DNA from: Nitratidesulfovibrio sp.
GTDB lineage: Bacteria > Desulfobacterota > Desulfovibrionia > Desulfovibrionales > Desulfovibrionaceae
DNA length: 64,000 nucleotides
Assembly: GCF_040373385.1 (NCBI RefSeq)
Contig: NZ_JBDXXH010000001.1
Span: 9,191-73,190 of the forward strand
Direction of reading: 5' to 3'
Part shown: positions 10,936 to 22,667 of the stretch, one piece after another
Layout: every line of letters starts with the position of its first letter
Numbering within the stretch: position 1 is the stretch's first letter
Made by a program: the position numbers and the translations under genes
The notes under the pieces: generated by a model
What the model saw: only the letters and a program-made list of their open reading frames with translations
What the model was told of the DNA's origin: nothing
Database searches by the model: none

Positions 10936-11342
10936 GCAGCGGTGCAACCTGTTCTTTTCGAGCACTGGTGCCTCTCGTGCAACAATGGGGGCGGACAAGG
11001 CCGCACATGCCCGCAACGCACCACGGCATCCGGAACCGGGGCGAAGGTCGGGCTGGCGTGTCCATGCGTGCGGGAAAACGCAAGGGGCGGTGCCGGGCGG
11101 GCCGGTAGTGGCGGCCTCCCCGCACGTTTCCCCAAACGTGCCGCACGCGCGCCTACCGGAATGAAACCTGAGTACTGTGCAGTCGTGAAGTCTGGCCGCA
11201 AGGCGTCGCCGGGGGCGCGGGCCGCTGCGGGGCAGGTGGTCGGGCAACTGACTTGCTGGCCGGCAAGGTGGCCAATGCAACGGCCAATCCTGCGACCGAA
11301 CAGCCGGGCTGCCCAAGGGGGCTGACTCGTCGGCCTGCTCAG

Positions 11343-11448
11343 CCGGATTGACCAGCCGGATTGACCAGCCGGCCTGTCCAGTCAGATTGACCAGCCAGTC
11401 TGTCCAGGTGGACTGCCTCGTCGGACTACTCAACCGGATTGACCAGCC
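11343..11448. repeat. Array of four direct copies of (C)CGGATTGACCAGCC plus two copies of CTGTCCAG
   Basis: Copies at 11343-11357, 11356-11370, 11383-11396 (cagattgaccagcc) and 11434-11448. In non-coding DNA between the GGDEF gene and speA. Confidence 0.8.
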
Positions 11449-11467
11449 AAACGGCTTGGCAGGCCAT

Positions 11468-11483
11468 TGGCACCCCTGCGGCA
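11468..11483 (+). promoter_or_regulatory. Weak sigma-54-type -24/-12 candidate (TGGCACC-N4-CGGCA)
   Basis: ttGGcacccctgcgGCa has the correct 12-nt GG-to-GC register. The -12 element is degenerate (CGGC instead of TTGC). It lies 20-125 bp downstream of the repeat array and about 400 nt upstream of speA. Confidence 0.3.
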
Positions 11484-11738
11484 AGCCAACCAAGTGCCGA
11501 CCAGCCACCTCTTTACGGCGGAATTCGGCCTGGCCTTTAGTCCTTGCTGGATATTGCCTTCACGATGCCACAGCCCCGCCATACCACAGCGTTGCCCGCC
11601 CTGTCAGCGGCAAGTCTTCCCTCACGTCATGCCCTACCGCAAAATGGGTGGAACGCCCACCGGGAGCGCATGCCCCGTCATGCACGCTCAATGATTGCAG
11701 GACTCTGTGACGTTCGTGCGAAAAGGGGGAAAATACCG

Positions 11739-11767
11739 TTGACAAGGCCCCCCGCTGCCAATAGATA
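11739..11767 (+). promoter_or_regulatory. Sigma-70-like promoter candidate for speA
   Basis: TTGACA (11739-11744), 17-nt spacer, TAGATA (11762-11767). About 110 nt upstream of the speA ATG. Confidence 0.4.
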
Positions 11768-11884
11768 GTGCCACTCTTCCAACGCGTGCGCGCCCCTGCC
11801 CTGCACCCGCGCACGAGGGCAAGAGAGAGGCTCTGGTCGGCCCGCCGTAAAGGCGGCGCCGTGGCATGCACCTGTAAACGGGGT

Positions 11885-13822
11885 ATGTATGAGGTTCGGG
11901 AATTGGCAAGAAACCGTACGCTGCAACAGTGGAGTGTCGAAGACTCCGCTGAGCTCTATGGCATCCGCAATTGGGGTGCCGGGTACTTCGATGTCGCCCA
12001 GAGTGGTGATGTCGTGGTCTATCCTTTCGGAGACAACCGCGGTCCTGCCGTAAGCATCCCGGAAATCATCCGGGGCATGCGGGAGCGCGGCTATGACATG
12101 CCGGTGCTCCTGCGCATCGAGAACATTCTCGATTCCCAGATCACCAGTCTTCACCAATCCTTCCGCAAGGCCATCGGGTCGCTCGGCTACAAGGGCGAAT
12201 ACCGGGGCATCTTCCCCATCAAGGTCAATCAGCAGCAGCAGGTGGTCGAAAAGATCGCCCAGTTCGGTTCGCGCTACCACCACGGTCTCGAGGTGGGCAG
12301 CAAGGCCGAACTCATCGCCGCCGTCTCGCAACTGCGTGACCACGAGGCCTGCCTTGTCTGCAACGGCTACAAGGACGAGGAATTCATCGACCTTGGCCTG
12401 CACGCCGTGCGCATGGGCTACAAGTGCTTCTTCGTGCTGGAAATGGCCAGCGAGCTGCCGTTGATTCTCGAACGCGCCAAGTGCCTTGGCGTGCGCCCGC
12501 TCATCGGCGTGCGCGCCAAGCTGTCCGTGAAGGCGGGTGGCCACTGGACCGATTCCGGCGGCGAGCGCTCCACCTTCGGCCTGACCACGGCCCAGATCGT
12601 CGACGTGGTGGACCTGCTGAAGGACCACGACATGCTCGACTGCTTCCAGCTGCTGCACTATCACTTGGGGTCGCAGGTGCCCAACATCCGCGACATCCGC
12701 GCTGCCGTCATGGAAGCCTGCCGCATCTACGGCGGCCTGGTGGCCGAAGGCGCGGCCATGGGCTATCTGGACCTTGGCGGGGGCCTAGCCGTGGACTACG
12801 ACGGCTCGCACACCAACTACGTGAGCAGCCGCAACTACAGCCTGGACGAATACTGCGCGGACATCATCGAAGCGGTGATGAACATCCTCGACGAGGAAGG
12901 CATCGCCCATCCGCACATCGTCACCGAATCGGGCCGCGCCACCGTGGCCTACTACTCCATGCTGCTGTTCAACATCCTGGACGTGAGCCGCGTGGAGATA
13001 GGCAACCTGCCCGACATCCTGCCCGACGACTGCCCCGAGCCCGTGCGCAACATGCGCGAGGCGCTGGCCGGTCTTACCCTGCGCAACCTTCAGGAATGCT
13101 ACAACGACGCCGTGTACTACCGCGACGAAGTGCGCCAGCAGTTCCTGACCGGGCGCATCACCCTGCGCGAACGCACCCTTGGCGAACGCTACTTCTGGGC
13201 CATCATGAAGCGCATCGCCCAGGAAAAGCAGAAGCTGAAGCACGTCCCCAAGGATCTTGCCGAGATAGACGTGGCCCTGGCCGACATCTACTACGGCAAC
13301 TTCAGCGTGTTCCAGTCGCTGCCCGATTCGTGGGCCATCGACCAGCTGTTTCCGGTGGTGCCCCTGCACCGCCTGAACGAGCTGCCCTCGCGCCAGGGCA
13401 TCCTGTCCGACATCACCTGCGACAGCGACGGCCGCATCGACCACTTCATCGACCCGCAAGGCGTGAAGGGCACCCTGGACCTGCACCCCCTGAAGGACGG
13501 CGAGGAATACTACCTCGGCGTGTTCCTGGTGGGGGCGTATCAGGAAACCCTGGGCGACCTGCACAACCTGCTGGGCGACACCAACGTGGTTTCGGTGCGC
13601 GTGCACGAGGACGGCAGCTACGAATTCGTGCGCGAACTGCGCGGCGATTCCGTGGCGGACATCCTGTCGTATGTGGAATACGACCCCCGCCGCATCATCG
13701 ACGACATCCGCGAGGCGGCGGAACAGGCCGTGCGCGAGGGGCGCATCACCCCCTCCGACCGGTACCGGGTGATGCAGGCGTATGAGGATGGGTTGCGGGG
13801 GTACACCTACTTCGAACGCTAA
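11885..13822 (+). CDS. speA: Biosynthetic arginine decarboxylase
   Basis: ORF 11768..13822 trimmed to ATG 11885 (MYEVRELARNRTLQQWSVEDSAELYGIRNWGAGYFDV). PLP-lysine context GIFPIKVNQQQQVVE. Also HYHLGSQ, LDLGGGLAVDYDG, DITCDSDG. Confidence 0.93.
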   Translation: MYEVRELARNRTLQQWSVEDSAELYGIRNWGAGYFDVAQSGDVVVYPFGDNRGPAVSIPEIIRGMRERGYDMPVLLRIENILDSQITSLHQSFRKAIGSLGYKGEYRGIFPIKVNQQQQVVEKIAQFGSRYHHGLEVGSKAELIAAVSQLRDHEACLVCNGYKDEEFIDLGLHAVRMGYKCFFVLEMASELPLILERAKCLGVRPLIGVRAKLSVKAGGHWTDSGGERSTFGLTTAQIVDVVDLLKDHDMLDCFQLLHYHLGSQVPNIRDIRAAVMEACRIYGGLVAEGAAMGYLDLGGGLAVDYDGSHTNYVSSRNYSLDEYCADIIEAVMNILDEEGIAHPHIVTESGRATVAYYSMLLFNILDVSRVEIGNLPDILPDDCPEPVRNMREALAGLTLRNLQECYNDAVYYRDEVRQQFLTGRITLRERTLGERYFWAIMKRIAQEKQKLKHVPKDLAEIDVALADIYYGNFSVFQSLPDSWAIDQLFPVVPLHRLNELPSRQGILSDITCDSDGRIDHFIDPQGVKGTLDLHPLKDGEEYYLGVFLVGAYQETLGDLHNLLGDTNVVSVRVHEDGSYEFVRELRGDSVADILSYVEYDPRRIIDDIREAAEQAVREGRITPSDRYRVMQAYEDGLRGYTYFER

Positions 13823-13846
13823 CGGCACCCGCTCCGAAAGGGCCTC

Positions 13847-13946
13847 TTGCCCGCTGGCTTCGTCAGGCGTCGCCTTTCATTCCGGTCGAGTACGATAAGA
13901 GTACACTCCCTGCATGAACGGCTCGCCTTCCTCGCCAGCGAACAAG
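13847..13946. repeat. Intergenic repeat family, copy B (related to 7719..7868)
   Basis: Same ordered blocks as copy A (ttgcccgctggcttcgtca .. ggtcgagtacgataagagta .. cactccct .. cctcgccagcgaaca), without the insert. Confidence 0.7.
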
Positions 13947-14273
13947 ATGCCTCTTTCGGAAGCGGGCGCCGCAGGCATAGCGCGGTGCGATAAGACGAAA
14001 TCGCACTGTCGCCATGGGCGTGGTAGTGCTTTTGCGGAAATCGCTAAAGGCGTGAAGCGCAAGGCTCCGCACCCCATCGAAGCAGGATACCCTTGATGCA
14101 TGCCATGCCGATCGCATGGTATGCTGACGCCGGTCACCGGCGCATGCAGGCAACAAGCGGGGCCGCCCCATGGTGTGGGGCTGGCCGTTCGGGATAACCA
14201 CAGCAGTGTCGCGCGGTCGCGCGTTTCCGGGCATGGGTGCTCGGGGCGGGCGGGGTGCGCAAAGGAGTGCGTC

Positions 14274-15464
14274 ATGGCACGTGTCCTCATCATCGGCGCT
14301 GGCGGCGTGGGCGGCGTGGTCGTCCACAAGTGCGCGCAGGTTCCCTCCGTATTTTCCGAAATCATGCTGGCAAGCCGCACCAAGTCGAAGTGCGACGCCA
14401 TCGCCGCAGACGTGAAGGCCCGCACCGGGCGCACCATTGAAACGGCCCGGGTCGACGCCGACAACGTGCCCGAGCTGGTGGCGCTGATCCGCGCGTACAA
14501 GCCGGACATGGTGCTGAACATCGCCCTGCCGTACCAGGACCTGACCATCATGGACGCCTGCCTCGAAACCGGCGTGCACTACCTGGACACCGCCAACTAC
14601 GAGCCGCTGGACGAGGCCAAGTTCGAGTACAAGTGGCAGTGGGCCTATCAGGAGCGCTTCGAGAAGGCCGGGCTGATGGCCCTTCTGGGCAGCGGCTTCG
14701 ACCCCGGCGTGACCAACGTGTTCTGCGCCTACGTCATGAAGCACCTGCTGGACGAGGTGCACGTGCTCGACATCATCGACTGCAACGCGGGCGACCACGG
14801 GCACCCCTTTGCCACCAACTTCAACCCGGAAATCAACATCCGTGAAGTGACCGCGCGCGGCCGCTACTGGGAACGGGGCGAGTGGGTGGAAACCGATCCC
14901 CTGTCGTGGTCCATGAACTACGATTTTCCGGAGGGCATCGGCGCCAAGAAGTGCTTCCTCATGTATCACGAGGAACTGGAATCGCTGGTGCAGAACCTGA
15001 ATGGCCTGAAGCGCGCCCGGTTCTGGATGACCTTTTCGGACAATTACCTGAACCACCTGAAGGTGCTGGAAAACGTGGGCATGACCCGCATCGACGAAGT
15101 GGAGCACGACGGCAAGAAGATCGTGCCCATCCAGTTCCTGCGCGCGCTGCTGCCCGACCCGGCATCCCTCGGCCCGCGCACCAAGGGCAAGACCTGCATC
15201 GGCTGCCTGATGCAGGGGGTGAAGGACGGCAAGCCCAAGACCGTCTACATCTACAACGTGTGCGACCATCAGGAATGCTACCGCGAGGTGGGATCGCAGG
15301 CCATTTCGTACACCACTGGCGTGCCCGCCATGATCGGCGCCATGATGATGATGACCGGCAAGTGGTCCGGCAAGGGCGTGTACAACATGGAGCAGCTGGA
15401 CCCCGACCCGTTCATGGACGCCCTGAACAAGCACGGCTTGCCGTGGGTTGTGGTTGAAAAATAG
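14274..15464 (+). CDS. Saccharopine dehydrogenase-family carboxy(nor)spermidine dehydrogenase/synthase
   Basis: ORF 14100..15464 trimmed to ATG 14274 (AAAGGAG upstream). MARVLIIGAGGVGGVVVHKCAQ Rossmann motif. 396 aa. Genomic context with speA, nspC and speB. Confidence 0.88.
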   Translation: MARVLIIGAGGVGGVVVHKCAQVPSVFSEIMLASRTKSKCDAIAADVKARTGRTIETARVDADNVPELVALIRAYKPDMVLNIALPYQDLTIMDACLETGVHYLDTANYEPLDEAKFEYKWQWAYQERFEKAGLMALLGSGFDPGVTNVFCAYVMKHLLDEVHVLDIIDCNAGDHGHPFATNFNPEINIREVTARGRYWERGEWVETDPLSWSMNYDFPEGIGAKKCFLMYHEELESLVQNLNGLKRARFWMTFSDNYLNHLKVLENVGMTRIDEVEHDGKKIVPIQFLRALLPDPASLGPRTKGKTCIGCLMQGVKDGKPKTVYIYNVCDHQECYREVGSQAISYTTGVPAMIGAMMMMTGKWSGKGVYNMEQLDPDPFMDALNKHGLPWVVVEK

Positions 15465-15525
15465 ACATTCTGGGTAGTTTGCCCTCAGAATGCCGATTGT
15501 CTCGGCACAGTGAGCAGCATGAATT

Positions 15526-15553
15526 CCGGGGGGCCGCGCGTGCGGTCCCCCGG
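15526..15553 (+). terminator. Stem-loop after the dehydrogenase gene
   Basis: ccggggggccgc-gcgt-gcggtcccccgg (12-bp stem, one mismatch), followed by tccttgttc. Confidence 0.5.
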
Positions 15554-15615
15554 TCCTTGTTCAGGCAGCGGGTATGGGGGAGCATGGTGGTGATTTTCAG
15601 GAGGGGCCTTGCGGC

Positions 15616-15632
15616 ATTCTAGAATCTAGAAT
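15616..15632 (+). promoter_or_regulatory. Perfect 8-1-8 palindrome ATTCTAGA-A-TCTAGAAT (operator/-10 region) abutting the wHTH gene
   Basis: AT-rich palindrome 6 nt upstream of ATG 15638. It contains two TAGAAT -10-like hexamers. No Shine-Dalgarno before the ATG, so the transcript may be leaderless. Confidence 0.5.
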
Positions 15633-15637
15633 ATGGA

Positions 15638-16177
15638 ATGTCCATGAACCTGCTCCCGCAAGATGTACTCGTCATGCTCAAGCTTTCGGTGGCGCGGCGT
15701 ACCCGCTGGACCTACGACCAGTTGGGCGTGGCGCTGGGCATGAGCATGTCCATGGTCCACAGTTCCATCAGGCGTGCCGCGCAAGCCCGGCTGTACGATG
15801 AGAACAGGCGAAAGCCCGTGCGCGCCGCGCTGGAGGAATTTCTGGTGCATGGCGTGAAGTACGCCTTTCCTCCAGACATCGGCACGGTGACGCGCGGGGT
15901 GCCGACGGCTTTTGCCGCGCCCGCACTGAAGGGAGAACTCCTGCATGATTCGGGAGCCGAAGCGGTGTATGTCTGGCCGTATCCGGAAGGGGACCATCGG
16001 GGCGTGTCTCTGTCGCCGTTGTATAAATCAGTACCGGTAGTTGCCTTGCGCAATACCCGCCTGTACGACGCCCTGAGCCTGCTCGACGCCATCCGCATCG
16101 GGCGGGCGCGTGAACAGCAGCGGGCGGCTGAATTTCTGAAAGGCATGTTGCGGAGCGATGATGCGCCGACTGCGTAA
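15638..16177 (+). CDS. Winged-helix DNA-binding protein, putative antitoxin/regulator partner of the downstream nucleotidyltransferase (AbiEi-like by architecture)
   Basis: 179-aa ORF. N-terminal HTH WTYDQLGVALGMSMSMVHSSIRRAAQARL. C-terminal domain ..VWPYPEGDHRGVSLSPLYKSVPVVALRNTRLYDALSLLDAIRIGRAREQ. Overlaps the next gene by 20 nt. Confidence 0.6.
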   Translation: MSMNLLPQDVLVMLKLSVARRTRWTYDQLGVALGMSMSMVHSSIRRAAQARLYDENRRKPVRAALEEFLVHGVKYAFPPDIGTVTRGVPTAFAAPALKGELLHDSGAEAVYVWPYPEGDHRGVSLSPLYKSVPVVALRNTRLYDALSLLDAIRIGRAREQQRAAEFLKGMLRSDDAPTA

Positions 16178-16850
16178 CATCGGCCATGTGTTGGACGCCG
16201 CGCGCCTGCTGGGCGACCTTGCGGACGAAGTGGCCTTCGTCGGCGGGGCCAGCGTGGCCTTGTTGCTGACCGACCCGGCGGCCCCGGATGTACGTCCCAC
16301 GCTGGATGTGGACGTCATTGTCGAGGCGGCCACGCGCCACGACTATTACCGCGTGGCCGACCGCCTGCGGTCACGCGGCTTCGCGGAGGACATGGATGTG
16401 GTGTGCCGCTGGCGACACGGAGCGCTGGTGCTCGACGCCATGCCCACGGACGATGCCATTCTGGGCTTTTCCAATTGCTGGTACGCCGATGCCTTGCGCC
16501 ATGCCGTGCGCATGACCGTGGACGGCGTGACCTTGCGGGTGGCCGCCCCGGCGTATTTTCTGGCCACCAAGCTGGAAGCCTTTCGGGGGCGGGGCAACGG
16601 CGATTACCTCACCAGCCACGACATGGAAGACCTGGTGGCCGTGCTGGATGGCCGATCGGATATCGCGGGCGAGGTACAGGCTGCGGACGCAGCCGTGCGC
16701 GGCTACCTTGCTGCGGCCTTTGCCGCGCTGCTGGCCGATGACGACTTTCTGGACGCGCTGCCCGGCTACCTGCCGCCCGACCCGGCAAGCCAGAGGCGCG
16801 TCCCCCTGCTCATGGGGCGCATGCGCCCCATCGCCACGGGTGGGGTGTAA
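16158..16850 (+). CDS. Nucleotidyltransferase-fold protein (AbiEii/minimal NTase-like, putative toxin)
   Basis: 230-aa ORF. NTase signature FVGGASVALLLTDPAAPDVRPTLDVDVIV (GG..x..DxD). A further acidic residue in LVLDAMP. Helical C-terminal half YFLATKLEAFRGRGNGDYLTSHDMEDLVAVLDGR. Confidence 0.6.
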   Translation: MMRRLRNIGHVLDAARLLGDLADEVAFVGGASVALLLTDPAAPDVRPTLDVDVIVEAATRHDYYRVADRLRSRGFAEDMDVVCRWRHGALVLDAMPTDDAILGFSNCWYADALRHAVRMTVDGVTLRVAAPAYFLATKLEAFRGRGNGDYLTSHDMEDLVAVLDGRSDIAGEVQAADAAVRGYLAAAFAALLADDDFLDALPGYLPPDPASQRRVPLLMGRMRPIATGGV

Positions 16851-16936
16851 ACGTTTTCCGGCTTCCGCGCTGCCGACAGAAGTCCATATTACACCGAGGC
16901 ATCCCGCATTCCGCTTTTGCAAGGAGTACCCCCAGA

Positions 16937-18166
16937 ATGATGGACCAAGCCTATCTCGCCAAGCTCGACCCCACCCGCTTCCCGTCCCCGTGCTTTGTGG
17001 TGGACGAGGCCCGCATAGAGGCAAATGCCGCCATTCTGGACACGGTGCAGCGCCGCACCGGGGCAAAGGTGCTGCTGGCGCTGAAGGGCTTTGCCATGTG
17101 GAGCCTGTTTCCGCTGCTGTCGCGCGCGCACGGCGGGGTGCTGCACGGCACCTGCGCCAGTTCCCCGCACGAGGCGCGGCTGGGCCGCGAGGAATTCGGG
17201 GGCGAGGTGCACGCCTTTGCCGCCGGGTACAGCGCTGCGGACATGGCCGAATTGGTGACCCTGGCCGATCATCTGGTGTTCAACTCGTTCGCGCAGTGGG
17301 ACCGGTTTCGCCCGGCGGTGGCGGCGGCGGGGCGGCCCATCGAGTGCGGCATGCGCATCAATCCGGAGCACTCGGAAGGGGCGGTGGCCATCTACAACCC
17401 CTGCTCGCCGGGTTCGCGCCTGGGGGTGCGGCCCCACCACTTCGAGGCCGCCCTGGCCGAGGCGGCGGCGCGCGGCCAGGACGCGCTGGACGGCATATCC
17501 GGCCTGCATTTCCACACCCTGTGCGAGCAGGACGCCGACGCGCTGGACCGCACCCTGCACGCGGTGGAGGCGAAGTTCGGCGCGCATCTTTCGCGCATGA
17601 AATGGCTGAACTTCGGCGGCGGGCATCACATCACCCGTCCCGGCTACGACCTTGACCTGCTGTGCCGGTGCATCGACCGCATGCAGCAGAAGTACGGGGT
17701 GCGGGTGTATATCGAGCCGGGCGAGGCCGTGGCCCTGAACGCCGGGGTGCTGCTGTGCACCGTGCTGGACGTGGTGCAGGCCGACATGCCCGTTGCCATT
17801 CTGGACACCTCTGCCGCCGCGCACATGCCCGACGTGCTGGAAATGCCCTATCGCCCCGGCTGCATCGGTTCCGGCCTGCCGGGCGAGAAGGCGTGGACCT
17901 GCCGTTTCGCGGGCAAGTCGTGCCTGGCGGGCGATGTCATCGGCGAATACTCGTTCGACGCGCCCCTGCAACCCGGCGACCGGCTGGCCTTCCTGGACAT
18001 GGCCATCTACAGCATGGTCAAGACCACCACCTTCAACGGGCTGCAACTGCCCGCCATTGCCCGCTACCGGTCGGCAGACGCGGATGGCGATGCCGTCGGG
18101 CGGGGCGCGCGGCGCGAGGTGGTGCGCTCCTTCGGGTACGAGGCGTTCAAGTACCGCCTGTCCTGA
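16937..18166 (+). CDS. nspC: Carboxy(nor)spermidine decarboxylase
   Basis: 409-aa ORF with AAGGAG upstream. MMDQAYLAKLDPTRFPSPCFVVDEARIEANAAIL..ALKGFAMWSLFP..; alanine-racemase-fold decarboxylase pattern ..NFGGGHHITRPGYD..CLAGDVIGEY. Confidence 0.9.
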   Translation: MMDQAYLAKLDPTRFPSPCFVVDEARIEANAAILDTVQRRTGAKVLLALKGFAMWSLFPLLSRAHGGVLHGTCASSPHEARLGREEFGGEVHAFAAGYSAADMAELVTLADHLVFNSFAQWDRFRPAVAAAGRPIECGMRINPEHSEGAVAIYNPCSPGSRLGVRPHHFEAALAEAAARGQDALDGISGLHFHTLCEQDADALDRTLHAVEAKFGAHLSRMKWLNFGGGHHITRPGYDLDLLCRCIDRMQQKYGVRVYIEPGEAVALNAGVLLCTVLDVVQADMPVAILDTSAAAHMPDVLEMPYRPGCIGSGLPGEKAWTCRFAGKSCLAGDVIGEYSFDAPLQPGDRLAFLDMAIYSMVKTTTFNGLQLPAIARYRSADADGDAVGRGARREVVRSFGYEAFKYRLS

Positions 18167-18277
18167 TGCGGCGGGCATGCGGTTCGCCAGTCCGTGCGGC
18201 TTTCGGGGGTGCTTGCGCCTGCGTTCGGCAATGCCTAGCATGTGTCCATGCGGGCGCCATGCGCCCCGGAGGCAGCC

Positions 18278-18592
18278 ATGATCTACATCGATGACAACGC
18301 GCGGGAGCGCATTTTGTCGGACGGCGGCAACGTGATCGTGTACATGCAGGCGGCGCGTGGCTGCGGCTGAGCATCGCGCATCATGCCCGTGCGAACCCCC
18401 GCCGTGCGCGTGGGGCAACCCCCGGAATGGATGCGGCCCGCCTTTCACCGGCACATGGTGGACGGCGTGGTGGTGTGGCTGGACCCGTCGGTAAAGCGGT
18501 TGCGCTGGGACGAACCGGCCCGCGTGCGGCTGCGCCGGTTCCTGTGGTTTTCGTATTTCGACGTGGAGGGGGCGCGCACCCTGGTGGCCTAG
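18278..18592 (+). CDS. Small conserved-looking protein with an in-frame TGA (candidate selenocysteine, G-C-G-U motif); 104 codons if read through
   Basis: ATG 18278 has GGAGG 6 nt upstream. This opens a 30-codon frame ending at TGA 18368-18370. The track ORF 18383..18592 is in the same frame (offset 105 nt) and has no SD of its own. GC3-rich codon usage continues across the TGA. An imperfect hairpin lies at 18385..18416. Confidence 0.5.
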
Positions 18593-18630
18593 CCTGCCGG
18601 GGGCGAGAGCCCCGCGCTGACGTGAGCGGA

Positions 18631-18701
18631 CGTGCGCGGCCCGTGCGATTCCTGCGGCCCGTACGATCCGTGGGGTCCGTACGATGTGCGCGGCCCGTGG
18701 G
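18631..18701. repeat. Degenerate ~18-bp tandem repeat (gcggcccgtRcgatYc-like, about 4 units)
   Basis: gtgcgcggcccgtgcgattc / ctgcggcccgtacgatcc / gtggggtccgtacgat / gtgcgcggcccgtggggg, in the spacer upstream of speB. Confidence 0.6.
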
Positions 18702-18909
18702 GGCGGGCGCGGTCTGGCGCGGACCCTGCGTGCCGTGCCCATGTGCCGCAGATCGCGGCCCGGCACGCGCTTTTCGGTTCATGGTTTCGGCTGCCGCCCC
18801 CCGATGGGCGGCGTTGTTGGAAGGGCCGCGCGGCATGTCAGGGGTGTCATGGCGCGCGGATGGGCAAACAGCCGCCTCCCCGCGCGGGAAGGCGTTACCG
18901 GAGCTTGCC

Positions 18910-19779
18910 ATGCGGCACGCCGAAGGGCGTTTCTTGGCCTCTGAACTGGACAATGCCGCGCCCGCCGGGGCGCGTTTTCATGTCATCCCCGTCCCCTACG
19001 AAGACAGCGTTTCCTACGGCGGGGGCACGGCGGCGGGGCCTGCCGCCATCCTTGCCGCGTCGGACCAGCTGGAACTGTGGGACGGCGAATCGGTGCCCGC
19101 AGAGCTTGGCATTCACACCGCGCCCGCCGTGGACTGTTCCGGCGGGGCGGAGGCGGTGCTGGCGCGCATCGAGGCGGCCACGGCCACGGCCCTGTCCCAC
19201 GGGGGGCTGCCCGTGCTGCTGGGCGGCGAGCATACCGTCACCCTTGGGGCGCTGCGGGCGCTGCACCGCCAGCACGGCAGGTTCGGGGTCATCCAGTTCG
19301 ACGCCCACGCCGACCTGCGCGACAGCTACGGCGGCACCCCCTACAGCCACGCGGCGGTGATGCGCCGCGCCGTGGCCGACCTTGGCCTGCCGCTGTTCCA
19401 GATCGGGGTGCGCGCCCTGTGCCGCGAAGAAGTGGACTGCCGCGCCGCGCTGGGCATCGGCCATCTGGACGCCGCCGCGCTGGCCCGCCACGGCATCCCC
19501 GACCCGCTGCTGCCGCCGGGCTTTCCGGAACGCATCTACGTGACCTTCGACGTGGACGGGCTGGACCCCTCCATCATGCCCGCCACCGGCACTCCGGTGC
19601 CCGGCGGCCTTGGCTGGTACGACGCCCGGCGCTGCCTGGAACTGGCCATGGCCGGGCGGCAGGTGCTGGGCTTTGACGTGGTGGAACTGGCCCCCATGCT
19701 GGGCTTTCACGCGGCGGACTTTGCGGCGGCGCGGCTGGTGTACGACATCATGGGGCTGGTGCAGCGGCTGGGCCGCTGA
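18910..19779 (+). CDS. speB: Agmatinase (ureohydrolase family)
   Basis: ORF 18427..19779 trimmed to ATG 18910 (GGAG upstream). MRHAEGRFLASELD..; Mn-binding motifs GGEHTVT, FDAHADLRD, TFDVDGLDPS, VELAP. Confidence 0.9.
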   Translation: MRHAEGRFLASELDNAAPAGARFHVIPVPYEDSVSYGGGTAAGPAAILAASDQLELWDGESVPAELGIHTAPAVDCSGGAEAVLARIEAATATALSHGGLPVLLGGEHTVTLGALRALHRQHGRFGVIQFDAHADLRDSYGGTPYSHAAVMRRAVADLGLPLFQIGVRALCREEVDCRAALGIGHLDAAALARHGIPDPLLPPGFPERIYVTFDVDGLDPSIMPATGTPVPGGLGWYDARRCLELAMAGRQVLGFDVVELAPMLGFHAADFAAARLVYDIMGLVQRLGR

Positions 19780-19916
19780 GCCGGATTCCTCTTCCGTCCC
19801 TGTTCTCCGCGCGCGGTTCTCGCGCGGGGGCCAGCCTTCTGCCGCATGTCGTGGGGCCGGACGTCCGCACGCCCGCGTCCCACCCGCACACGTCCTACCC
19901 GCACCCAACAACGACA

Positions 19917-19951
19917 GCGCCCCGGCTTCCGGATGTTTCCGGGCCGGGGCG
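19917..19951. terminator. Stem-loop between convergent speB and the PAS-GGDEF-EAL gene
   Basis: cgccccggc-N17-gccggggcg, followed by ttcgtggtg. Confidence 0.45.
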
Positions 19952-20039
19952 TTCGTGGTGTGATGGCATGGGCGGGATGGGGACGGTGCGGGGGCGGTGC
20001 TGATGCAGCAGGGCCGCCCCCTCCACCGGCCATCCCCGG

Positions 20040-22667
20040 TCAGATGGTGCCGCCCCCGTCGCGGGGCACGGTCAGTCGTCTGCCCCGTACCAGCAGCGCG
20101 GCGAACTCTTCCGGCGGCAGGGGGCGGCTGAACAGGAATCCCTGCACCTCGTGGCAGCCTTCCAGCAGCAGGAAGTTGAGCTGTTCCGGCGTTTCCACCC
20201 CTTCGGCCACCACGCGTAGCCCCAGCCTGTCGGCCATGGTGATGATGGTGGCGGCGATGGCCGCGTCGTTGGGGTCGTCGGGGATGTCGCGGATGAACGA
20301 ACGGTCGATCTTCAGCGAGGTCAGCGGCAGGTTCTTGAGCTGGGACAGCGAGGAGTAGCCGGTGCCGAAGTCGTCCACCGAAAGGGCAATGCCCATTTCC
20401 GCCAGTTGGTTCAGCTTGCGGATGGTGTGGTCCGCGTCGGTGACGATGGTGGATTCGGTGATTTCCAGTTCCAGCAGGTGCGGCGGCAGGCCCGTTTCGG
20501 CCAGCACGTCGGCCACCATGCCCACCAGGTTGCGGTGGCGGAACTGATGCAGCGAAAGGTTCACGGCCACGTGCAGGTCGGCGTGCCCGGCATCGCACAG
20601 GGCGCGGGTTCTGGCGCAGGCCAGGCGCAGCATGTGCTCGCCAAGGGGCACGATGAGCCCCGTGGATTCGGCCAGCGGGATGAACTCCGCCGGGTGTTCC
20701 TGGCTGCCGTCGGCGCGGGTCCAGCGGGCCAGGGCCTCCATGCCGGTGATCAGGCCGGTGTTCAGGTCCACGCGCGGCTGGTAGTGGGCGGTGATGTCTC
20801 CGGCGGCCAGGGCGCGGTGCAGGTCGCCTTCCAGCGACAGGCGGCGCACGGCGCGTTCGTTCATGGCCGGGGTGAACAGGTGGTAGCGGCGCTTGCCCTG
20901 TTCCTTGGCGCGCGACATGGCGATGTCGGCGTTGCGCACCAGGGTGTCCGGGTCGTCGCCGTCGTCGGGAAACAGGGCTATGCCCACGCTGGCGCCCACG
21001 AACAGTTCGTGTTCCTGCACGCGCACCGGGTCGGTGAACCGGGCCAGCAGCCGTTCGGCCACCTGCGCGGCGTCGCGTTCGTTCTCCACGTCCTGCAGCA
21101 CCACGACGAATTCGTCGCCGCCCACGCGGGCCAGGGTGTCCTGCGGGCGGACCATCTGGCGCATCTGCTCGGCGGCCTGTTGCAGGTAGATGTCGCCCAC
21201 CATGTGGCCCAGGCTGTCGTTGACCTGCTTGAAGTTGTCCAGGTCCACCGACAGCACGGCCACCTTGCGGCCCTCGCGCCGGGCGCCGTTGATGGCCATG
21301 CCCAGCCGGTCGCGCAACAGGGCGCGGTTGGGCAGGCCGGTGAGCGCGTCATGGTGGGCCTGGTGCTGGATCTGCGATTCCTTGGCCTTCAGTTCCGTGA
21401 TGTCGTGGAACACGGCCACGTAGTATTCGGTGCGCCCGGTGGGGCCGGGTATGGCGCTGATGCTCAGCCACTCGGGGTAGACCTCGCCGTTCTTGCGGCG
21501 GTTCCAGATTTCTTCTTCCCAGCGGCCATCCTCCACCAGGGTGCGCCACATGTCCTCGTAGAAGGCGCTGTCGTGGTGGTGCGACTTGAGGATGCGCGGG
21601 GTCGCGCCCACGGCTTCTTCCGCCGGGTACCCGGTGATGGTGGTGAAGGCCGGGTTCACCGCCACGATGGTACCTTCCGGGTCGGTGATGCAGATGCCTT
21701 CCAGCGCGTTGCGGAACACCCGTTCGAACAGCCGCGCCTGCCGTTCGGCGGCGCGGCGGCCGGAAATGTCGTGCACCACCACCAGTGCGGCCATGCCCTC
21801 GCCCCGCAGCAGGGACAGGGGCAGGGGCTCCACGCTCACCTCGGCCTCGTGGCTGCCCTGCGCGGTGGCGCAGACCCCCTCCATGCAGAAGCCGCCGGTC
21901 GGGCAGGATTCGTGCGGGACTGTGGGCGGTCCCGCCGGGGTGGCGTCGGGCAGGGGGCTTCCGGCCAGCAGGTTGTCGATGCGGGCCTCGATGTCCGGGG
22001 GCAGCAGGTCCGCCGTGCGCAGGGACAGCAGGGCCTGGCGCGGGTGGCCGGACATGCGTTCGGCGGTGCGGTTGCAGTCCACGATGCGGCCGCCCTCGCC
22101 GCGTACGTACACGGCGTCGGGGGCCAGTTCGAACAGCGCGCGGAAGCGGGCGGTGCTTTCGGCAAGCGCGGCGGTGCGCTGGCGCACCTCTTCTTCTATT
22201 TCGGCCTGGACCAGGGCGGTGACGTCGAAGGCCAGGCCCAGCACGGCACCTGCCCCGGCCACCTCGGGCGGCAGGGGCAGCTTGGCCACGCGGAACACCC
22301 GCTCGGTAGCGTCGTCGGGCAGCATGCGCTCGCACAGCATGGGGGTTTCGTCGGCGGCCACGCGCCGGTCCTCGTCCAGCAGGGCGCTGGCCACGGCATG
22401 GGGAAAGATGTCGTGCGGGGAAAGGCCCACCATGTCCTTGCCGGGCACTCCGGCCAGGTCGGCGTACAACTGGTTGGCGGCCAGATAGCGGCCCTGGCCG
22501 TCGCGCAGGAACATGGCCACCATGGGGTTGTCCAGCAGGGCGCGCAGCAGGCCGGGCATCTTGCCGGCGGACGCGTCGTCGCCAGCCCTCACCCCGCCAA
22601 CTGCCCCACCGGTGGCGTGCTGTTCCTGTTTCCTGTCCCGCCTGTCGCCCGTCCTGTCGTCCGTCAT
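20040..22667 (-). CDS. Multi-PAS GGDEF-EAL signalling protein (c-di-GMP turnover)
   Basis: ORF 20040..23441 trimmed to ATG 22667 (AGGGGGG upstream; MTDDRTGDRRDRKQ..). PAS segments. GGDEF domain HDALTGLPNRA..RVGGDEFVVVL. EAL domain GMEALARW..ELEITES..DDFGTGYSSLS..LKIDRSF..AEGVET. Confidence 0.9.
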   Translation of the reverse strand: MTDDRTGDRRDRKQEQHATGGAVGGVRAGDDASAGKMPGLLRALLDNPMVAMFLRDGQGRYLAANQLYADLAGVPGKDMVGLSPHDIFPHAVASALLDEDRRVAADETPMLCERMLPDDATERVFRVAKLPLPPEVAGAGAVLGLAFDVTALVQAEIEEEVRQRTAALAESTARFRALFELAPDAVYVRGEGGRIVDCNRTAERMSGHPRQALLSLRTADLLPPDIEARIDNLLAGSPLPDATPAGPPTVPHESCPTGGFCMEGVCATAQGSHEAEVSVEPLPLSLLRGEGMAALVVVHDISGRRAAERQARLFERVFRNALEGICITDPEGTIVAVNPAFTTITGYPAEEAVGATPRILKSHHHDSAFYEDMWRTLVEDGRWEEEIWNRRKNGEVYPEWLSISAIPGPTGRTEYYVAVFHDITELKAKESQIQHQAHHDALTGLPNRALLRDRLGMAINGARREGRKVAVLSVDLDNFKQVNDSLGHMVGDIYLQQAAEQMRQMVRPQDTLARVGGDEFVVVLQDVENERDAAQVAERLLARFTDPVRVQEHELFVGASVGIALFPDDGDDPDTLVRNADIAMSRAKEQGKRRYHLFTPAMNERAVRRLSLEGDLHRALAAGDITAHYQPRVDLNTGLITGMEALARWTRADGSQEHPAEFIPLAESTGLIVPLGEHMLRLACARTRALCDAGHADLHVAVNLSLHQFRHRNLVGMVADVLAETGLPPHLLELEITESTIVTDADHTIRKLNQLAEMGIALSVDDFGTGYSSLSQLKNLPLTSLKIDRSFIRDIPDDPNDAAIAATIITMADRLGLRVVAEGVETPEQLNFLLLEGCHEVQGFLFSRPLPPEEFAALLVRGRRLTVPRDGGGTI

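What the first reader, a model, noticed from the sequence alone, without database searches (positions are those of the whole stretch)
15590..16850. wHTH + nucleotidyltransferase (AbiE-like toxin-antitoxin/defence pair) inserted inside the spermidine pathway cluster
A terminator hairpin lies at 15526-15553, between the carboxyspermidine dehydrogenase gene (ends 15464) and nspC (starts 16937). After it comes an AT-rich perfect palindrome ATTCTAGA-A-TCTAGAAT (15616-15632) carrying two TAGAAT hexamers. Two overlapping genes follow (20-nt overlap).

The first is a 179-aa protein with an N-terminal winged-helix. The second is a 230-aa protein with a minimal nucleotidyltransferase signature (GG-x18-RPTLDVDV, then LDAMP). 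A DNA-binding partner followed by an NTase, with a palindromic operator on the promoter, is the organisation of AbiEi/AbiEii type IV TA and abortive-infection modules.

The first gene looks slightly less GC-rich than its neighbours. It has no SD, so it may be leaderless. From memory, the dehydrogenase and nspC genes are adjacent in other Desulfovibrio genomes, which would make this pair an insertion. That recollection needs checking.
Basis: partly seen in the sequence, partly recalled or inferred. Interest (0 to 1): 0.62.

Follow-up and report, generated by a model that had tools for sequence, protein, structure and literature searches.

The report
Mobile regulator–nucleotidyltransferase toxin-antitoxin-like gene pair
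A two-gene cassette, a small DNA-binding regulator followed by an AbiEii/MenT-type nucleotidyltransferase, has been inserted between two polyamine-synthesis genes; it belongs to a widespread, catalogued but untested candidate phage-defence/toxin-antitoxin family, so it is a fairly ordinary mobile module whose family-wide conserved operator is worth noting.

Summary
The sequence observations hold: the hairpin, the perfect 17-bp palindrome and two overlapping + strand genes are all present.

- **Family assignment.** Both proteins match PADLOC candidate system PDC-M21 (A 3e-43, B 1e-61). PDC systems are an untested "guilt-by-embedding" set.
- **Protein B.** It is a DUF1814/AbiEii-superfamily NTase. 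It passes the Pfam cut-off over part of the model, carries all four motifs, and has a Thr at the MenT phospho-acceptor position. The model (pLDDT 95.6) has a Pol-beta NTase fold.
- **Protein A.** It has an N-terminal winged helix but is not a detectable AbiEi. Its family has no Pfam model.
- **Pairing.** A precedes B in 87 of 93 loci. The other 6 are cut off by contig ends.
- **Operator.** An ATTC…GAAT palindrome sits about 11-13 nt before A's start codon in most family members examined. Its core co-varies with two residues of A's predicted recognition helix.
- **Insertion.** Carboxyspermidine dehydrogenase (CASDH) and nspC are adjacent in about 70 of 80 genomes, none with the pair. Syntenic relatives show an empty site. 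Homologues elsewhere sit with integrases, relaxases, plasmids and defence genes, never polyamine genes.

Best reading: an autoregulated AbiE/MenAT-like toxin-antitoxin or abortive-infection module. Toxicity and defence are not shown. The hairpin is CASDH's ancestral terminator. Probable starts are 15644 (A) and 16161 (B).

The parts
15526..15553 (+). GC-rich hairpin followed by a T-rich tail. This is the intrinsic terminator of the carboxyspermidine dehydrogenase gene. It marks the left boundary and is not part of the inserted module.
   Evidence: It is conserved in L081 and L082. Analogous hairpin plus T-run structures sit directly after CASDH at the empty sites in L090 and L093.
15609..15614 (+). 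TTGCGG, a -35-like hexamer 1 nt upstream of the palindrome. Its role as a promoter element is inferred.
   Evidence: A TTGnnn hexamer lies 1 nt upstream of the palindrome in 14 of the 18 strict-palindrome loci that have a TTG nearby. No transcription start site has been mapped.
15616..15632 (+). Perfect palindrome ATTCTAGA-A-TCTAGAAT, the predicted operator for protein A. It fills the space between the -35-like and -10-like elements.
   Evidence: unique in the window, 0.01 expected. It is 100% conserved in L081 and L082 despite diverged flanks. A palindrome is present in most family members examined: perfect arms of at least 8 nt in 46 of 70 upstream regions, against about 1.5 expected. Its core co-varies with recognition-helix residues 37 and 40 of A.
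15630..15639 (+). AATATGGAAT, a third GAAT-type half-site and -10-like element 4-5 nt before the start codon. It suggests a leaderless or very short-leader mRNA (inferred).
   Evidence: A (T)AGAAT- or TAnnAT-like element ends 3-10 nt before the ATG in 32 of 69 family upstream regions. SD-like sequences occur in only 6 of 69.
15644..16177 (+). Gene A (177 aa; the longest ORF starts at 15638 and gives 179 aa). It encodes a winged-helix DNA-binding protein and matches PDC-M21A. Predicted role: autorepressor and antitoxin.
   Evidence: PADLOC PDC-M21A 3e-43; no Pfam hit. AF2 pLDDT 74.6, with H1-H2-H3-wing at residues 7-60 of the 179-aa ORF. The wHTH matches MarR-type domains (rmsd 2.7 over 65 columns) and other wHTH regulators. 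The family comprises 3,220 representative clusters.
16152..16155 (+). GGAG, a Shine-Dalgarno-like sequence for gene B lying inside the 3' end of gene A. It suggests translational coupling.
   Evidence: Read directly from the sequence. The A/B overlap is the rule in the family: 4 nt in 34 loci and 8 nt in 15.
16161..16850 (+). Gene B (229 aa; the longest ORF starts at 16158 and gives 230 aa). It encodes a DUF1814/AbiEii-superfamily nucleotidyltransferase and matches PDC-M21B. Predicted role: toxin.
   Evidence: PADLOC PDC-M21B 1e-61. Pfam AbiEii 24.3 bits against a cut-off of 22.5; 22 of 35 homologues also hit it. Motifs: G29G30, R46-P-T48-L-D50-V-D52, D93, K138LEAFRGR145, H154DMED158. AF2 pLDDT 95.6. 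Foldseek finds 5uvd, TglT/MenT3 and ANT(2'')-Ia with TMq 0.47-0.49, and CCA-adding enzymes more weakly, TMq about 0.27. A PDB profile search hits 5uvd (1e-4) and MenT1 (0.014).
15571..16919 (.). Tentative extent of the inserted DNA (1,349 nt).
   Evidence: One metatranscriptome contig in run X4 joins 15570 to 16920, with 30 nt on the shorter side. The joint is absent from three DNA runs, so the evidence is weak. Independently, the empty sites in L090 and L093 bound the insert between 15465 and 16936. No flanking direct or inverted repeats were found.

Best explanation
The region holds a horizontally acquired, self-contained two-gene module of the DUF1814 nucleotidyltransferase toxin-antitoxin / abortive-infection type. 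It is catalogued as PADLOC candidate PDC-M21.

**Shown**
- The pair is an insertion between CASDH and nspC that is unrelated to polyamine synthesis.
- A and B form an obligate, overlapping pair.
- B has the Pol-beta NTase fold and all four DUF1814 motifs.
- A has an N-terminal winged helix.
- A palindrome lies just upstream of A in most family members examined, and it co-varies with A's recognition helix.

**Inferred mechanism**
1. A binds, probably as a dimer, to the 17-bp palindrome lying between the -35-like TTGCGG and a -10-like element. This represses a leaderless or near-leaderless A-B transcript.
2. B is translationally coupled to A.
3. When free, B acts as a growth-arresting NTase. By analogy with MenT toxins it would add nucleotides to tRNA acceptor ends.
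4. A neutralises B. This could be by complex formation and/or by inducing auto-phosphorylation of the conserved Thr48, which aligns with the MenT1 T39 acceptor.
5. Loss or titration of A, for example on phage infection or loss of the element, would free B. The result would be abortive infection or element addiction.
For: - **Family assignment.** PDC-M21A 3e-43 and PDC-M21B 1e-61. Pfam AbiEii is above its gathering score for B and is hit by 22 of 35 homologues.
- **Motifs.** The invariant residues G29, G30, R46, T48, D50, D52, D93, K138, A141, D155, E157 and D158 match motifs I-IV, which were shown by mutagenesis to be required for AbiEii toxicity (PMC3985639).
- **Phospho-acceptor.** T48 aligns with MenT1 T39 (PMC11375011).
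- **Fold of B.** AF2 pLDDT 95.6. Top structural neighbours are the NTase-like protein 5uvd, TglT/MenT3 and ANT(2'')-Ia, with CCA-adding enzymes as weaker matches.
- **Fold of A.** The wHTH is seen.
- **Pairing.** A is directly upstream of B in 87 of 93 loci. The other 6 have under 190 nt upstream because of contig ends. The modal overlap is 4 nt.
- **Operator.** Perfect arms of at least 8 nt occur in 46 of 70 upstream regions, against about 1.5 expected. In 24 of 28 strict matches the palindrome ends 11-13 nt before the start.
- **Co-variation.** The two A positions most informative about the operator core are residues 37 and 40, both in helix 3. A GCGA core goes with E37 in 40 of 40 cases, a TAGA core with M/Q37 and S/N40, and a CNGG core with R40.
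- **Insertion.** CASDH and nspC are adjacent in about 70 of 80 loci, none with the pair. L090 and L093 are empty sites with otherwise identical synteny. The pair sits in the same slot only in relatives 89-93% identical. GC3 is lower than in the neighbours.
- **Mobility and defence context.** An integrase and TrwC relaxase, a resolvase, 117 plasmid records (73 of them conjugative or mobilizable), BREX/RM/SoFic/IetAS/AbiEii neighbours, and prophage baseplate genes.
Against: - No member of this family (PDC-M21) has been tested. The source paper calls the 145 PDC systems untested, and no paper in the library mentions PDC-M21.
- DUF1814 NTases are not always toxic. MenT2 was non-toxic in M. smegmatis and E. 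coli (PMC7450476).
- A shows no detectable relation to any characterised antitoxin, and residues about 80-135 of its model are low-confidence.
- Structural similarity of B to solved toxins is modest (TM about 0.48), and the Pfam hit covers only residues 111-186.
- Many neighbourhoods are housekeeping genes rather than defence islands, and none of 50,697 isolate phage genomes carries the pair.
- One RNA-run contig spans the region from the hairpin into gene A (15541-15902). That does not fit a strictly leaderless start, unless it reflects read-through or contaminating DNA.
Confidence: 0.62

Rival explanations
1. The pair is a mobile-element stabilisation (addiction) module with no role in phage defence. 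It would use the same toxin-antitoxin mechanics, but selection would act through post-segregational killing on plasmids and integrative elements. The chromosomal copy here would then be a fixed remnant.
For: 117 plasmid records carry a B relative; 46 are conjugative and 27 mobilizable. Copies lie next to ParA, an integrase and IS elements, or next to an integrase and TrwC relaxase. AbiE is reported to stabilise plasmids (PMC3985639). Here the pair is fixed at one chromosomal slot in a small clade.
Against: The family was originally picked up because members lie embedded in BREX, DISARM or type I RM loci. Several neighbours in my sample are defence genes. The two roles are not mutually exclusive.
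Confidence: 0.2
2. B is a non-toxic, regulated nucleotidyltransferase, for example a small-molecule or antibiotic-modifying enzyme like ANT(2''), or a protein- or RNA-modifying enzyme with a housekeeping or stress role. A would simply be its transcriptional repressor, not an antitoxin.
For: ANT(2'')-Ia is among the top fold matches (TMt 0.56). The best PDB relative, 5uvd, is a fungal NTase-like protein with no TA partner. MenT2 is a non-toxic DUF1814 protein. A's C-terminal two-thirds has no recognisable antitoxin fold.
Against: Strict pairing with short overlaps implies tight stoichiometric coupling typical of TA pairs. A's C-terminal region is highly conserved, with many invariant residues beyond the wHTH. 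That is not expected of a plain repressor. DUF1814-specific motifs III and IV and the Thr acceptor are conserved. The distribution is patchy and mobile.
Confidence: 0.12
3. The pair is a dedicated regulator and enzyme of the spermidine/norspermidine pathway.
For: Only its position between CASDH and nspC. It also keeps that position in the two closest relatives.
Against: It is absent from this slot in about 70 of 80 genomes where CASDH and nspC are adjacent, and from syntenic relatives L090 and L093. None of the more than 90 other pair-bearing loci has polyamine genes nearby.
Confidence: 0.02
4. The pair is a HEPN-MNT-type system in which the NTase (B) is the antitoxin that nucleotidylates a toxic partner (A).
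For: MNT antitoxins are also minimal Pol-beta NTases encoded in two-gene operons. This rests on general knowledge, not on a test made here.
Against: A starts with a wHTH and has no conserved Rx4-6H HEPN motif among its invariant residues. No HEPN fold appears among its matches. B carries DUF1814-specific motifs III and IV and is larger than an MNT.
Confidence: 0.03

Closest known systems
PADLOC phage defence candidate PDC-M21 (A+B), from the 'guilt-by-embedding' set of Payne et al., bioRxiv 10.1101/2024.01.29.577857
   Same: Both proteins match the two models strongly and cover most of each model (A 3e-43, profile positions 51-202 of 205; B 1e-61, 17-228 of 234). They are adjacent and in the expected order.
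   Different: Nothing distinguishes this pair from the candidate family. However, the family is only a bioinformatic candidate: it is untested and is not mentioned by name in any paper in the library.
AbiE (AbiEi/AbiEii) type IV TA / abortive-infection system of Streptococcus agalactiae and lactococci (PMC3985639)
   Same: A regulator gene precedes and overlaps a DUF1814 NTase gene. The regulator has an N-terminal wHTH. There are inverted repeats in the promoter. NTase motifs I-IV are present. Members are widespread on mobile elements.
   Different: - A is about 177 aa and has no detectable AbiEi/COG5340 homology.
- The operator is a single compact 17-bp palindrome abutting the start codon. 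In abiE there are two 11-23-bp repeats, and the transcription start lies 26 bp upstream of the ATG.
- B has the KLxAaxxR form of motif III reported for COG4849, and 19 residues between GG and DxD rather than 15.
- PADLOC's AbiEii models do not hit B.
MenAT1 (MenA1-MenT1, Rv0078B/A) of M. tuberculosis (PMC10435456, PMC11375011)
   Same: After 5uvd, MenT1 is the only other solved protein the B profile picks up by sequence, and only weakly (8an4, E = 0.014). MenT1 is described as a COG4849-family NTase. Thr48 of B aligns with the MenT1 T39 phospho-acceptor two residues before DxD.
   Different: MenA1 is a 68-aa antitoxin without a DNA-binding domain, whereas A is a 177-aa wHTH protein. Sequence similarity between B and MenT1 is marginal. 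tRNA modification by B has not been shown.
MenAT3 / TakA-TglT (Rv1044-Rv1045) (PMC7205606, PMC7450476)
   Same: TglT/MenT3 is the second-best fold match to B (6j7r, E = 4.7e-3, TMq 0.48). The antitoxin is a wHTH protein encoded upstream, and the toxin is regulated through a Ser/Thr next to the DxD motif.
   Different: MenA3 belongs to COG5340 (AbiEi-like), and A does not. MenT3 is about 290 aa, with extra elements absent from B.
COG4861-COG4849 gene pairs (predicted in PMC3985639; MenA2-MenT2, Rv0837c-Rv0836c)
   Same: A predicted wHTH regulator lies upstream of an NTase. B carries the KLxAaxxR motif that the literature gives for the COG4849 family.
   Different: The COG4861 partner is described as much larger than its toxin, whereas A is smaller than B. 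COG membership could not be tested with the tools available. MenT2 was not toxic.

Membership tests
PADLOC PDC-M21 (candidate defence system) | Both component HMMs (PDC-M21A and PDC-M21B) match adjacent genes | tested here: met
   A 3e-43 (145.9 bits) and B 1e-61 (206.6 bits). The genes overlap on the same strand.
PADLOC PDC-M21 (candidate defence system) | Demonstrated anti-phage activity | not testable with these tools
   The source paper lists the PDC systems as 145 untested candidates. No paper mentions PDC-M21.
DUF1814 / AbiEii NTase superfamily (Pfam PF08843) - protein B | Pfam model matched above its gathering score | tested here: met
   24.3 bits against a cut-off of 22.5, E = 3.6e-5. 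Only residues 111-186 align. 22 of 35 homologues hit the same model.
DUF1814 / AbiEii NTase superfamily (Pfam PF08843) - protein B | Motifs I and II: hG[G/S]-x(n)-DhD, with a conserved Arg before the DxD | tested here: met
   F27-V-G29-G30 … R46-P-T48-L-D50-V-D52. G29, G30, R46, D50 and D52 are invariant. The spacing is 19 residues, against 15 in AbiEii.
DUF1814 / AbiEii NTase superfamily (Pfam PF08843) - protein B | Motif III: a Lys flanked by hydrophobic residues (KLxAaxxR in COG4849) | tested here: met
   K138-L-E-A141-F142-R-G-R145. K138 and A141 are invariant; F142 and R145 are conserved in at least 90%.
DUF1814 / AbiEii NTase superfamily (Pfam PF08843) - protein B | Motif IV: the +DxxD pentad | tested here: met
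   H154-D155-M-E157-D158. D155, E157 and D158 are invariant. The '+' position is His rather than Lys or Arg.
DUF1814 / AbiEii NTase superfamily (Pfam PF08843) - protein B | DNA polymerase beta-type NTase fold | tested here: met
   AF2 pLDDT 95.6. Foldseek finds 5uvd NTase-like (2.4e-4), TglT/MenT3 (4.7e-3), ANT(2'')-Ia, CCA-adding enzymes, Cid1 and Pol mu. TM-scores for the best three are modest, about 0.47-0.49.
DUF1814 / AbiEii NTase superfamily (Pfam PF08843) - protein B | Ser/Thr phospho-acceptor two residues before DxD (MenT-type regulation) | tested here: met
   T48 is invariant and aligns with MenT1 T39 in the profile alignment to 8an4. Its significance is described in PMC11375011. Phosphorylation itself was not tested.
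DUF1814 / AbiEii NTase superfamily (Pfam PF08843) - protein B | Growth inhibition on expression; NTP binding or transfer to tRNA | not testable with these tools
   This needs expression and biochemical assays.
AbiEi / COG5340 antitoxin - protein A | Sequence-profile membership (Pfam AbiEi families, PADLOC AbiEi models) | tested here: not met
   No Pfam family at E <= 1. PDC-M21A is the only PADLOC hit at E <= 1. The A-family profile finds no AbiEi or Rv2827c chain in the PDB at E <= 10.
AbiEi / COG5340 antitoxin - protein A | [quoted passage not shown] | tested here: met
   The AF2 model has H7-18, H26-33 and H37-49 plus a beta-wing at 53-60. It superposes on a MarR wHTH (rmsd 2.7 over 65 columns, prob 0.97) and on IclR- and DtxR-type wHTH domains.
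AbiEi / COG5340 antitoxin - protein A | C-terminal antitoxicity domain with the AbiEi/Rv2827c fold | tested here: inconclusive
   No AbiEi (6Y8Q) or Rv2827c (1ZEL) among the top 50 Foldseek matches. However, residues about 80-135 of the model are low-confidence.
AbiEi / COG5340 antitoxin - protein A | Binds inverted repeats in its own promoter and autorepresses | tested here: inconclusive
   The evidence is comparative only. A palindrome is conserved in most family members examined, and its core co-varies with helix-3 residues 37 and 40.
AbiE system as defined by PADLOC | AbiEi and AbiEii HMMs match the two genes | tested here: not met
   Neither protein hits an AbiE model at E <= 1. Genuine AbiEii neighbours in other loci score 7e-99, so the models do work.
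COG4861-COG4849 pair | NTase with the KLxAaxxR motif; upstream COG4861 regulator larger than the NTase | tested here: inconclusive
   The motif is met. The partner size is not met: A is 177 aa and B 229 aa, whereas the literature describes the COG4861 antitoxin as much larger than the toxin. No COG library was available.
HEPN-MNT toxin-antitoxin | Partner protein with a HEPN fold and Rx4-6H motif | tested here: not met
   No conserved Rx4-6H among A's invariant columns. No HEPN structure among the fold matches.

The most novel reading that the evidence does not exclude
Protein A would found a previously uncharacterised antitoxin/regulator family. It comprises about 3,200 representative clusters and has no Pfam model. 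The family pairs exclusively with a COG4849-like DUF1814 NTase and uses a modular, re-programmable code: residues 37 and 40 of its recognition helix against the ATTC-NNNN core of the operator. It would control a leaderless operon.

In this genome there is no terminator between B and nspC. The inserted, A-repressed promoter may therefore have become a driver of nspC and agmatinase transcription, which would couple polyamine synthesis to the state of a toxin-antitoxin switch.
Probability: 0.15. Interest if true: 0.6.

Novelty: new variant of a known kind. Interest (0 to 1): 0.4.

Why it matters
For genome annotation, the two "hypothetical" or "AbiEii-family" genes inside the spermidine cluster should be treated as a mobile TA/defence-type insertion, not as polyamine genes.

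For the field, the pair represents a large, untested branch of the DUF1814 NTase systems whose partner protein belongs to no described antitoxin family. The comparative data give a ready-made, testable operator-recognition code, clear catalytic and phospho-acceptor residues to mutate, and natural filled and empty sites.

If toxicity and defence are confirmed, PDC-M21 would move from candidate to validated system. It would also extend the idea of MenT/AbiEii-type regulation to another antitoxin class. If not, it would be another example, like MenT2, of a non-toxic DUF1814 enzyme whose function is unknown.

Tried and rejected
1. **Polyamine-pathway role.** Rejected on synteny and on the contexts of other copies.
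2. **A as an AbiEi homologue.** No support from Pfam, PADLOC, a PDB profile search or Foldseek.
3. **HEPN-MNT reading.** No HEPN features in A.
4. **Exact insertion ends.**
   - Intergenic DNA of the empty-site relatives L090 and L093 is too diverged to align; blastn similarity stops at the CDS borders.
   - No flanking direct repeats or terminal inverted repeats were found.
   - The only precise joint (15570 to 16920) rests on one metatranscriptome contig with 30 nt on the shorter side, and it is absent from three DNA runs. I keep it as tentative.
5. **Genome-collection scan with nspC.** I recovered close relatives through protein look-ups instead. The look-up for P0006 (strain HK-II) found nothing on record.
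6. **Rfam scan of 11000-20500.** Nothing credible.
7. **Transcription start from RNA runs.** Only assembled contigs were available. Contig breaks at 15615/15616 also occur in DNA runs, so they reflect the palindrome rather than a transcript end.
8. **Bulk GC as a foreign-DNA signal.** Not informative. Only GC3 shows a mild dip. My crude window-wide gene picker mixed in antisense ORFs, so it gives no reliable background distribution.
9. **Isolate phage genomes.** No B homologue. Only 3 IMG/VR contigs carry one, two of them next to baseplate genes.


Full report
**1. What is in the sequence**

After the CASDH gene (stop at 15464) there is a 12-pair, GC-rich hairpin at 15526-15553 followed by a T-rich tail. 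A 61-nt stretch containing it folds at -33.3 kcal/mol, z = -2.9.

At 15616-15632 lies the perfect palindrome ATTCTAGA-A-TCTAGAAT. It is unique in the window, and 0.01 matches are expected by chance even with three mismatches allowed.

Two + strand ORFs follow, 15638..16177 and 16158..16850. Two refinements apply:
- Most homologues of the first protein begin MNLLPQD or a close variant, and the close relative L081 has no ATG at the position of 15638. ATG 15644 is therefore the likelier start, giving 177 aa.
- The second gene has GGAG at 16152-16155. That is 5 nt before ATG 16161 but only 2 nt before ATG 16158, and the closest homologues are 229-232 aa. 16161 is therefore the likelier start, giving a 17-nt overlap.

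Bulk GC content is unremarkable. Third-position GC, however, is lower in the pair (A 0.74, B 0.82) than in speA, CASDH, nspC and the agmatinase gene (0.85-0.90).

**2. What the proteins are**

*Family assignment.* Both proteins match the two components of PADLOC candidate system PDC-M21 and cover most of each model (A 3e-43, B 1e-61). PDC systems are 145 untested candidates. They were derived from genes found embedded in BREX, DISARM and type I RM loci. No paper in the library mentions PDC-M21 by name.

*Protein B.* B passes the Pfam AbiEii (PF08843, DUF1814) gathering score, though only over residues 111-186. 22 of 35 homologues hit the same model. An alignment of 35 homologues shows the following invariant or near-invariant residues:
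- G29-G30
- R46-P-T48-L-D50-V-D52
- D93
- K138-L-E-A-F-R-G-R145
- H154-D-M-E-D158

These correspond to motifs I-IV, which Dy et al. showed by mutagenesis to be needed for AbiEii toxicity and GTP binding (PMC3985639). Motif III has exactly the KLxAaxxR form that the paper reports for the COG4849 branch.

Thr48 sits two residues before DxD. In the profile alignment to MenT1 (8an4) it pairs with T39. T39 is the residue that is auto-phosphorylated when the antitoxin binds (PMC11375011).

The AlphaFold model of B is very confident (pLDDT 95.6). Its best structural neighbours are the NTase-like protein 5uvd, TglT/MenT3 (Rv1045) and ANT(2'')-Ia, with TMq 0.47-0.49. CCA-adding enzymes, Cid1 and Pol mu follow as weaker matches. 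B is therefore a Pol-beta-fold NTase of the DUF1814 superfamily. It is nearer to the MenT1/COG4849 side than to AbiEii proper, and PADLOC's AbiEii models do not hit it.

*Protein A.* A has no Pfam or NCBIfam family and no PDB relative by sequence or profile. Its model (pLDDT 74.6) has a clear N-terminal winged helix. This is followed by a helix, a poorly predicted but highly conserved stretch (about residues 80-135), and two C-terminal helices. Foldseek matches only the wHTH, to MarR-, IclR- and DtxR-type regulators. No AbiEi or Rv2827c appears among the top 50 matches. The family is large, with 3,220 representative clusters at E <= 1e-3, nearly all 170-180 aa.

**3. The pair is one unit with a conserved operator**

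*Pairing.* I examined 93 loci carrying a B homologue. They comprise the window, 9 loci from protein look-ups, 80 metagenome contigs and 3 IMG/VR contigs. A lies directly upstream on the same strand in 87. The other six have under 190 nt upstream because the contig ends. The genes usually overlap, by 4 nt in 34 loci and by 8 nt in 15.

*Palindrome.* The palindrome is not peculiar to this genome.
- In 46 of 70 distinct upstream regions the best inverted repeat has perfect arms of at least 8 nt. About 1.5 are expected from shuffles.
- In strict matches it ends 11-13 nt before the start codon in 24 of 28 cases.
- Its outer ATTC…GAAT is constant while the core changes symmetrically: TCGCGA in 43 loci, TCTAGA in 13, and TCCAGA/TCTGGA in 6.
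- A TTGnnn hexamer usually lies 1 nt upstream. A TAGAAT- or TAnnAT-like element ends 3-10 nt before the ATG in about half of the regions (32 of 69). SD-like sequences are rare, 6 of 69.

*Co-variation with A.* I scored every column of A for mutual information with the operator core class. The two top positions are residues 37 and 40, counted from ATG 15644, and both lie in the predicted recognition helix.
- A GCGA core goes with Glu37 (40 of 40) and Ala/Gly40.
- A TAGA core goes with Met/Gln37 and Ser/Asn40.
- A CNGG core goes with Arg40.

By chance, the top two of 177 positions would both fall in a 13-residue helix about 0.5% of the time. This is my own arithmetic, not a tool result. The test is not corrected for phylogeny. 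Even so, it is good comparative evidence that A reads the palindrome directly.

The layout is -35-like element, then operator, then -10-like element, then ATG. This implies promoter occlusion and a leaderless or very short-leader mRNA. Both points are inferences, because no transcription start is mapped.

**4. It is an insertion and has nothing to do with polyamines**

- *Wider comparison.* In 80 reference-genome loci with an nspC relative, from Desulfovibrionaceae to Bacillota, CASDH lies directly upstream of nspC in about 70. None has an A or B homologue.
- *Close relatives.* The closest relatives (B 89-93% identical; Nitratidesulfovibrio sp. 1201_IL3209 and a MAG) carry the pair in the same slot, with the hairpin and palindrome conserved.
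- *Empty sites.* The next tier (nspC 78% identical) shares the flanking gene order. L090 shows the full order: M17 peptidase, GGDEF, speA, CASDH, nspC, agmatinase, PAS-GGDEF-EAL, Usp, PLD. L093 shows the part of it that its contig covers. In both, only 278 or 464 nt separate CASDH and nspC, with no pair present.
- *The hairpin.* Both empty sites keep a hairpin plus T-run right after CASDH. The hairpin at 15526-15553 is therefore CASDH's own terminator, not part of the insert.
- *Insert ends.* Exact ends could not be mapped. One metatranscriptome contig joins 15570 to 16920, which would make the insert 1,349 nt, but this is weak evidence.
- *Other copies.* Elsewhere the pair lies in varied settings:
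  - next to a tyrosine integrase and TrwC relaxase in Citrifermentans, next to a resolvase in Pseudodesulfovibrio, and in islands of hypothetical genes;
  - on 117 plasmid records, 73 of them conjugative or mobilizable, for example beside an integrase, ParA and IS6, or directly after a DNA methyltransferase next to IS3 and an integron integrase;
  - beside BREX, RM, SoFic, IetAS and other AbiEii genes;
  - in two IMG/VR contigs, next to baseplate genes;
  - but also beside ordinary housekeeping genes.
- *Phage genomes.* No isolate phage genome carries it.

**5. How it most likely works**

*Shown:*
- an obligate, overlapping regulator-NTase pair;
- an intact DUF1814 catalytic centre;
- a winged helix in A;
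- an operator that co-evolves with A;
- horizontal mobility.

*Inferred by analogy with AbiE and MenAT (PMC3985639, PMC7450476, PMC11375011 and the 2026 AbiE preprint):*
1. A represses its own promoter.
2. B is a growth-arresting NTase, probably acting on tRNA 3' ends.
3. A neutralises B, possibly by inducing phosphorylation of Thr48.
4. Disturbing the A:B balance, through phage infection or loss of the element, frees B.

I put about 0.85 on "DUF1814-type, autoregulated, mobile two-gene module" and about 0.6 on "functional toxin-antitoxin or abortive-infection system". The main caveats are:
- the family is untested;
- MenT2 shows that DUF1814 proteins can be non-toxic;
- A has no recognisable antitoxin domain.

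Metatranscriptome contigs from related strains cover both genes at depths similar to the flanks, which fits expression. Contig data are a poor measure, however, and may include DNA.

**6. Comparison with known systems and novelty**

The module works like AbiE/MenAT. It is a member of the catalogued candidate family PDC-M21, and B is a member of Pfam DUF1814. It is not an AbiE system in the strict sense:
- A fails the AbiEi membership tests.
- B falls outside PADLOC's AbiEii models.
- The operator architecture differs. Here a single 17-bp palindrome abuts the start codon. In abiE two long repeats lie upstream of a 26-nt leader.
- It also differs from the described COG4861-COG4849 pairs, in which the regulator is much larger than the NTase.

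I therefore rate it a new variant of a known kind. It is already flagged by one database but remains uncharacterised. Interest is moderate. A specialist would not be surprised to find such a module. The operator/recognition-helix code and the natural filled and empty sites do, however, make this untested family easy to attack experimentally.

**7. A side observation**

No terminator-like site lies between B's stop codon and nspC, 86 nt downstream, and one RNA-run contig spans 16728-17178. The inserted promoter could therefore contribute to nspC transcription. This is speculative.

Noticed in passing
window 13875-13918: A 44-nt stretch in the speA-CASDH intergenic region recurs, with 0-5 mismatches, in at least six other contigs of the run that holds this exact genome (X1). 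It occurs only once in the 64-kb window. It looks like a short dispersed intergenic repeat.
   Followed up: partly
window 15923-16061 (protein A, about residues 94-139): In a related strain (X2 contig) this 137-nt segment is replaced by a different 137 nt, and homologue P0123 diverges in about the same place. It coincides with the low-confidence but otherwise conserved middle part of the A model. It may be a mosaic or specificity-determining segment.
   Followed up: partly
window 16851-16936: No terminator-like structure lies between the NTase gene and nspC, and a metatranscriptome contig spans 16728-17178. Transcription from the inserted module may read through into nspC.
   Followed up: partly
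window 15616-15644, minus strand: The palindrome also creates a good minus-strand sigma-70-like match (TGGACA-17-TAGAAT, 10 of 12) pointing back towards CASDH. It is probably a by-product of the symmetry, but it could drive an antisense or divergent transcript.
   Followed up: no
L175:1646-5112 and L176:4595-7835 (IMG/VR contigs): In two viral or proviral contigs the A-B pair lies within about 0.6 kb of a baseplate wedge gene. This suggests occasional carriage as a prophage or tailocin 'moron'. No isolate phage genome has it.
   Followed up: partly
L178:2573-5630 (Aquabacterium olei plasmid pTB101): The pair directly follows a class I SAM-dependent DNA methyltransferase and is flanked by an IS3 transposase and an integron integrase. 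This is the kind of 'embedded in RM' context from which the PDC candidates were derived.
   Followed up: no
window 18383-18592 and neighbours (between nspC and the agmatinase gene): Small ORFs (about 50-70 aa) are called at this position in relatives L082, L090 and L093. One of them, in L082, has a weak Pfam CC_Se_fam hit. Whether they are real genes is unknown.
   Followed up: no
window 18427-19779: The longest agmatinase ORF is 450 aa, but relatives-290 aa. The true start is probably near 18900, and the 5' extension is likely spurious.
   Followed up: no
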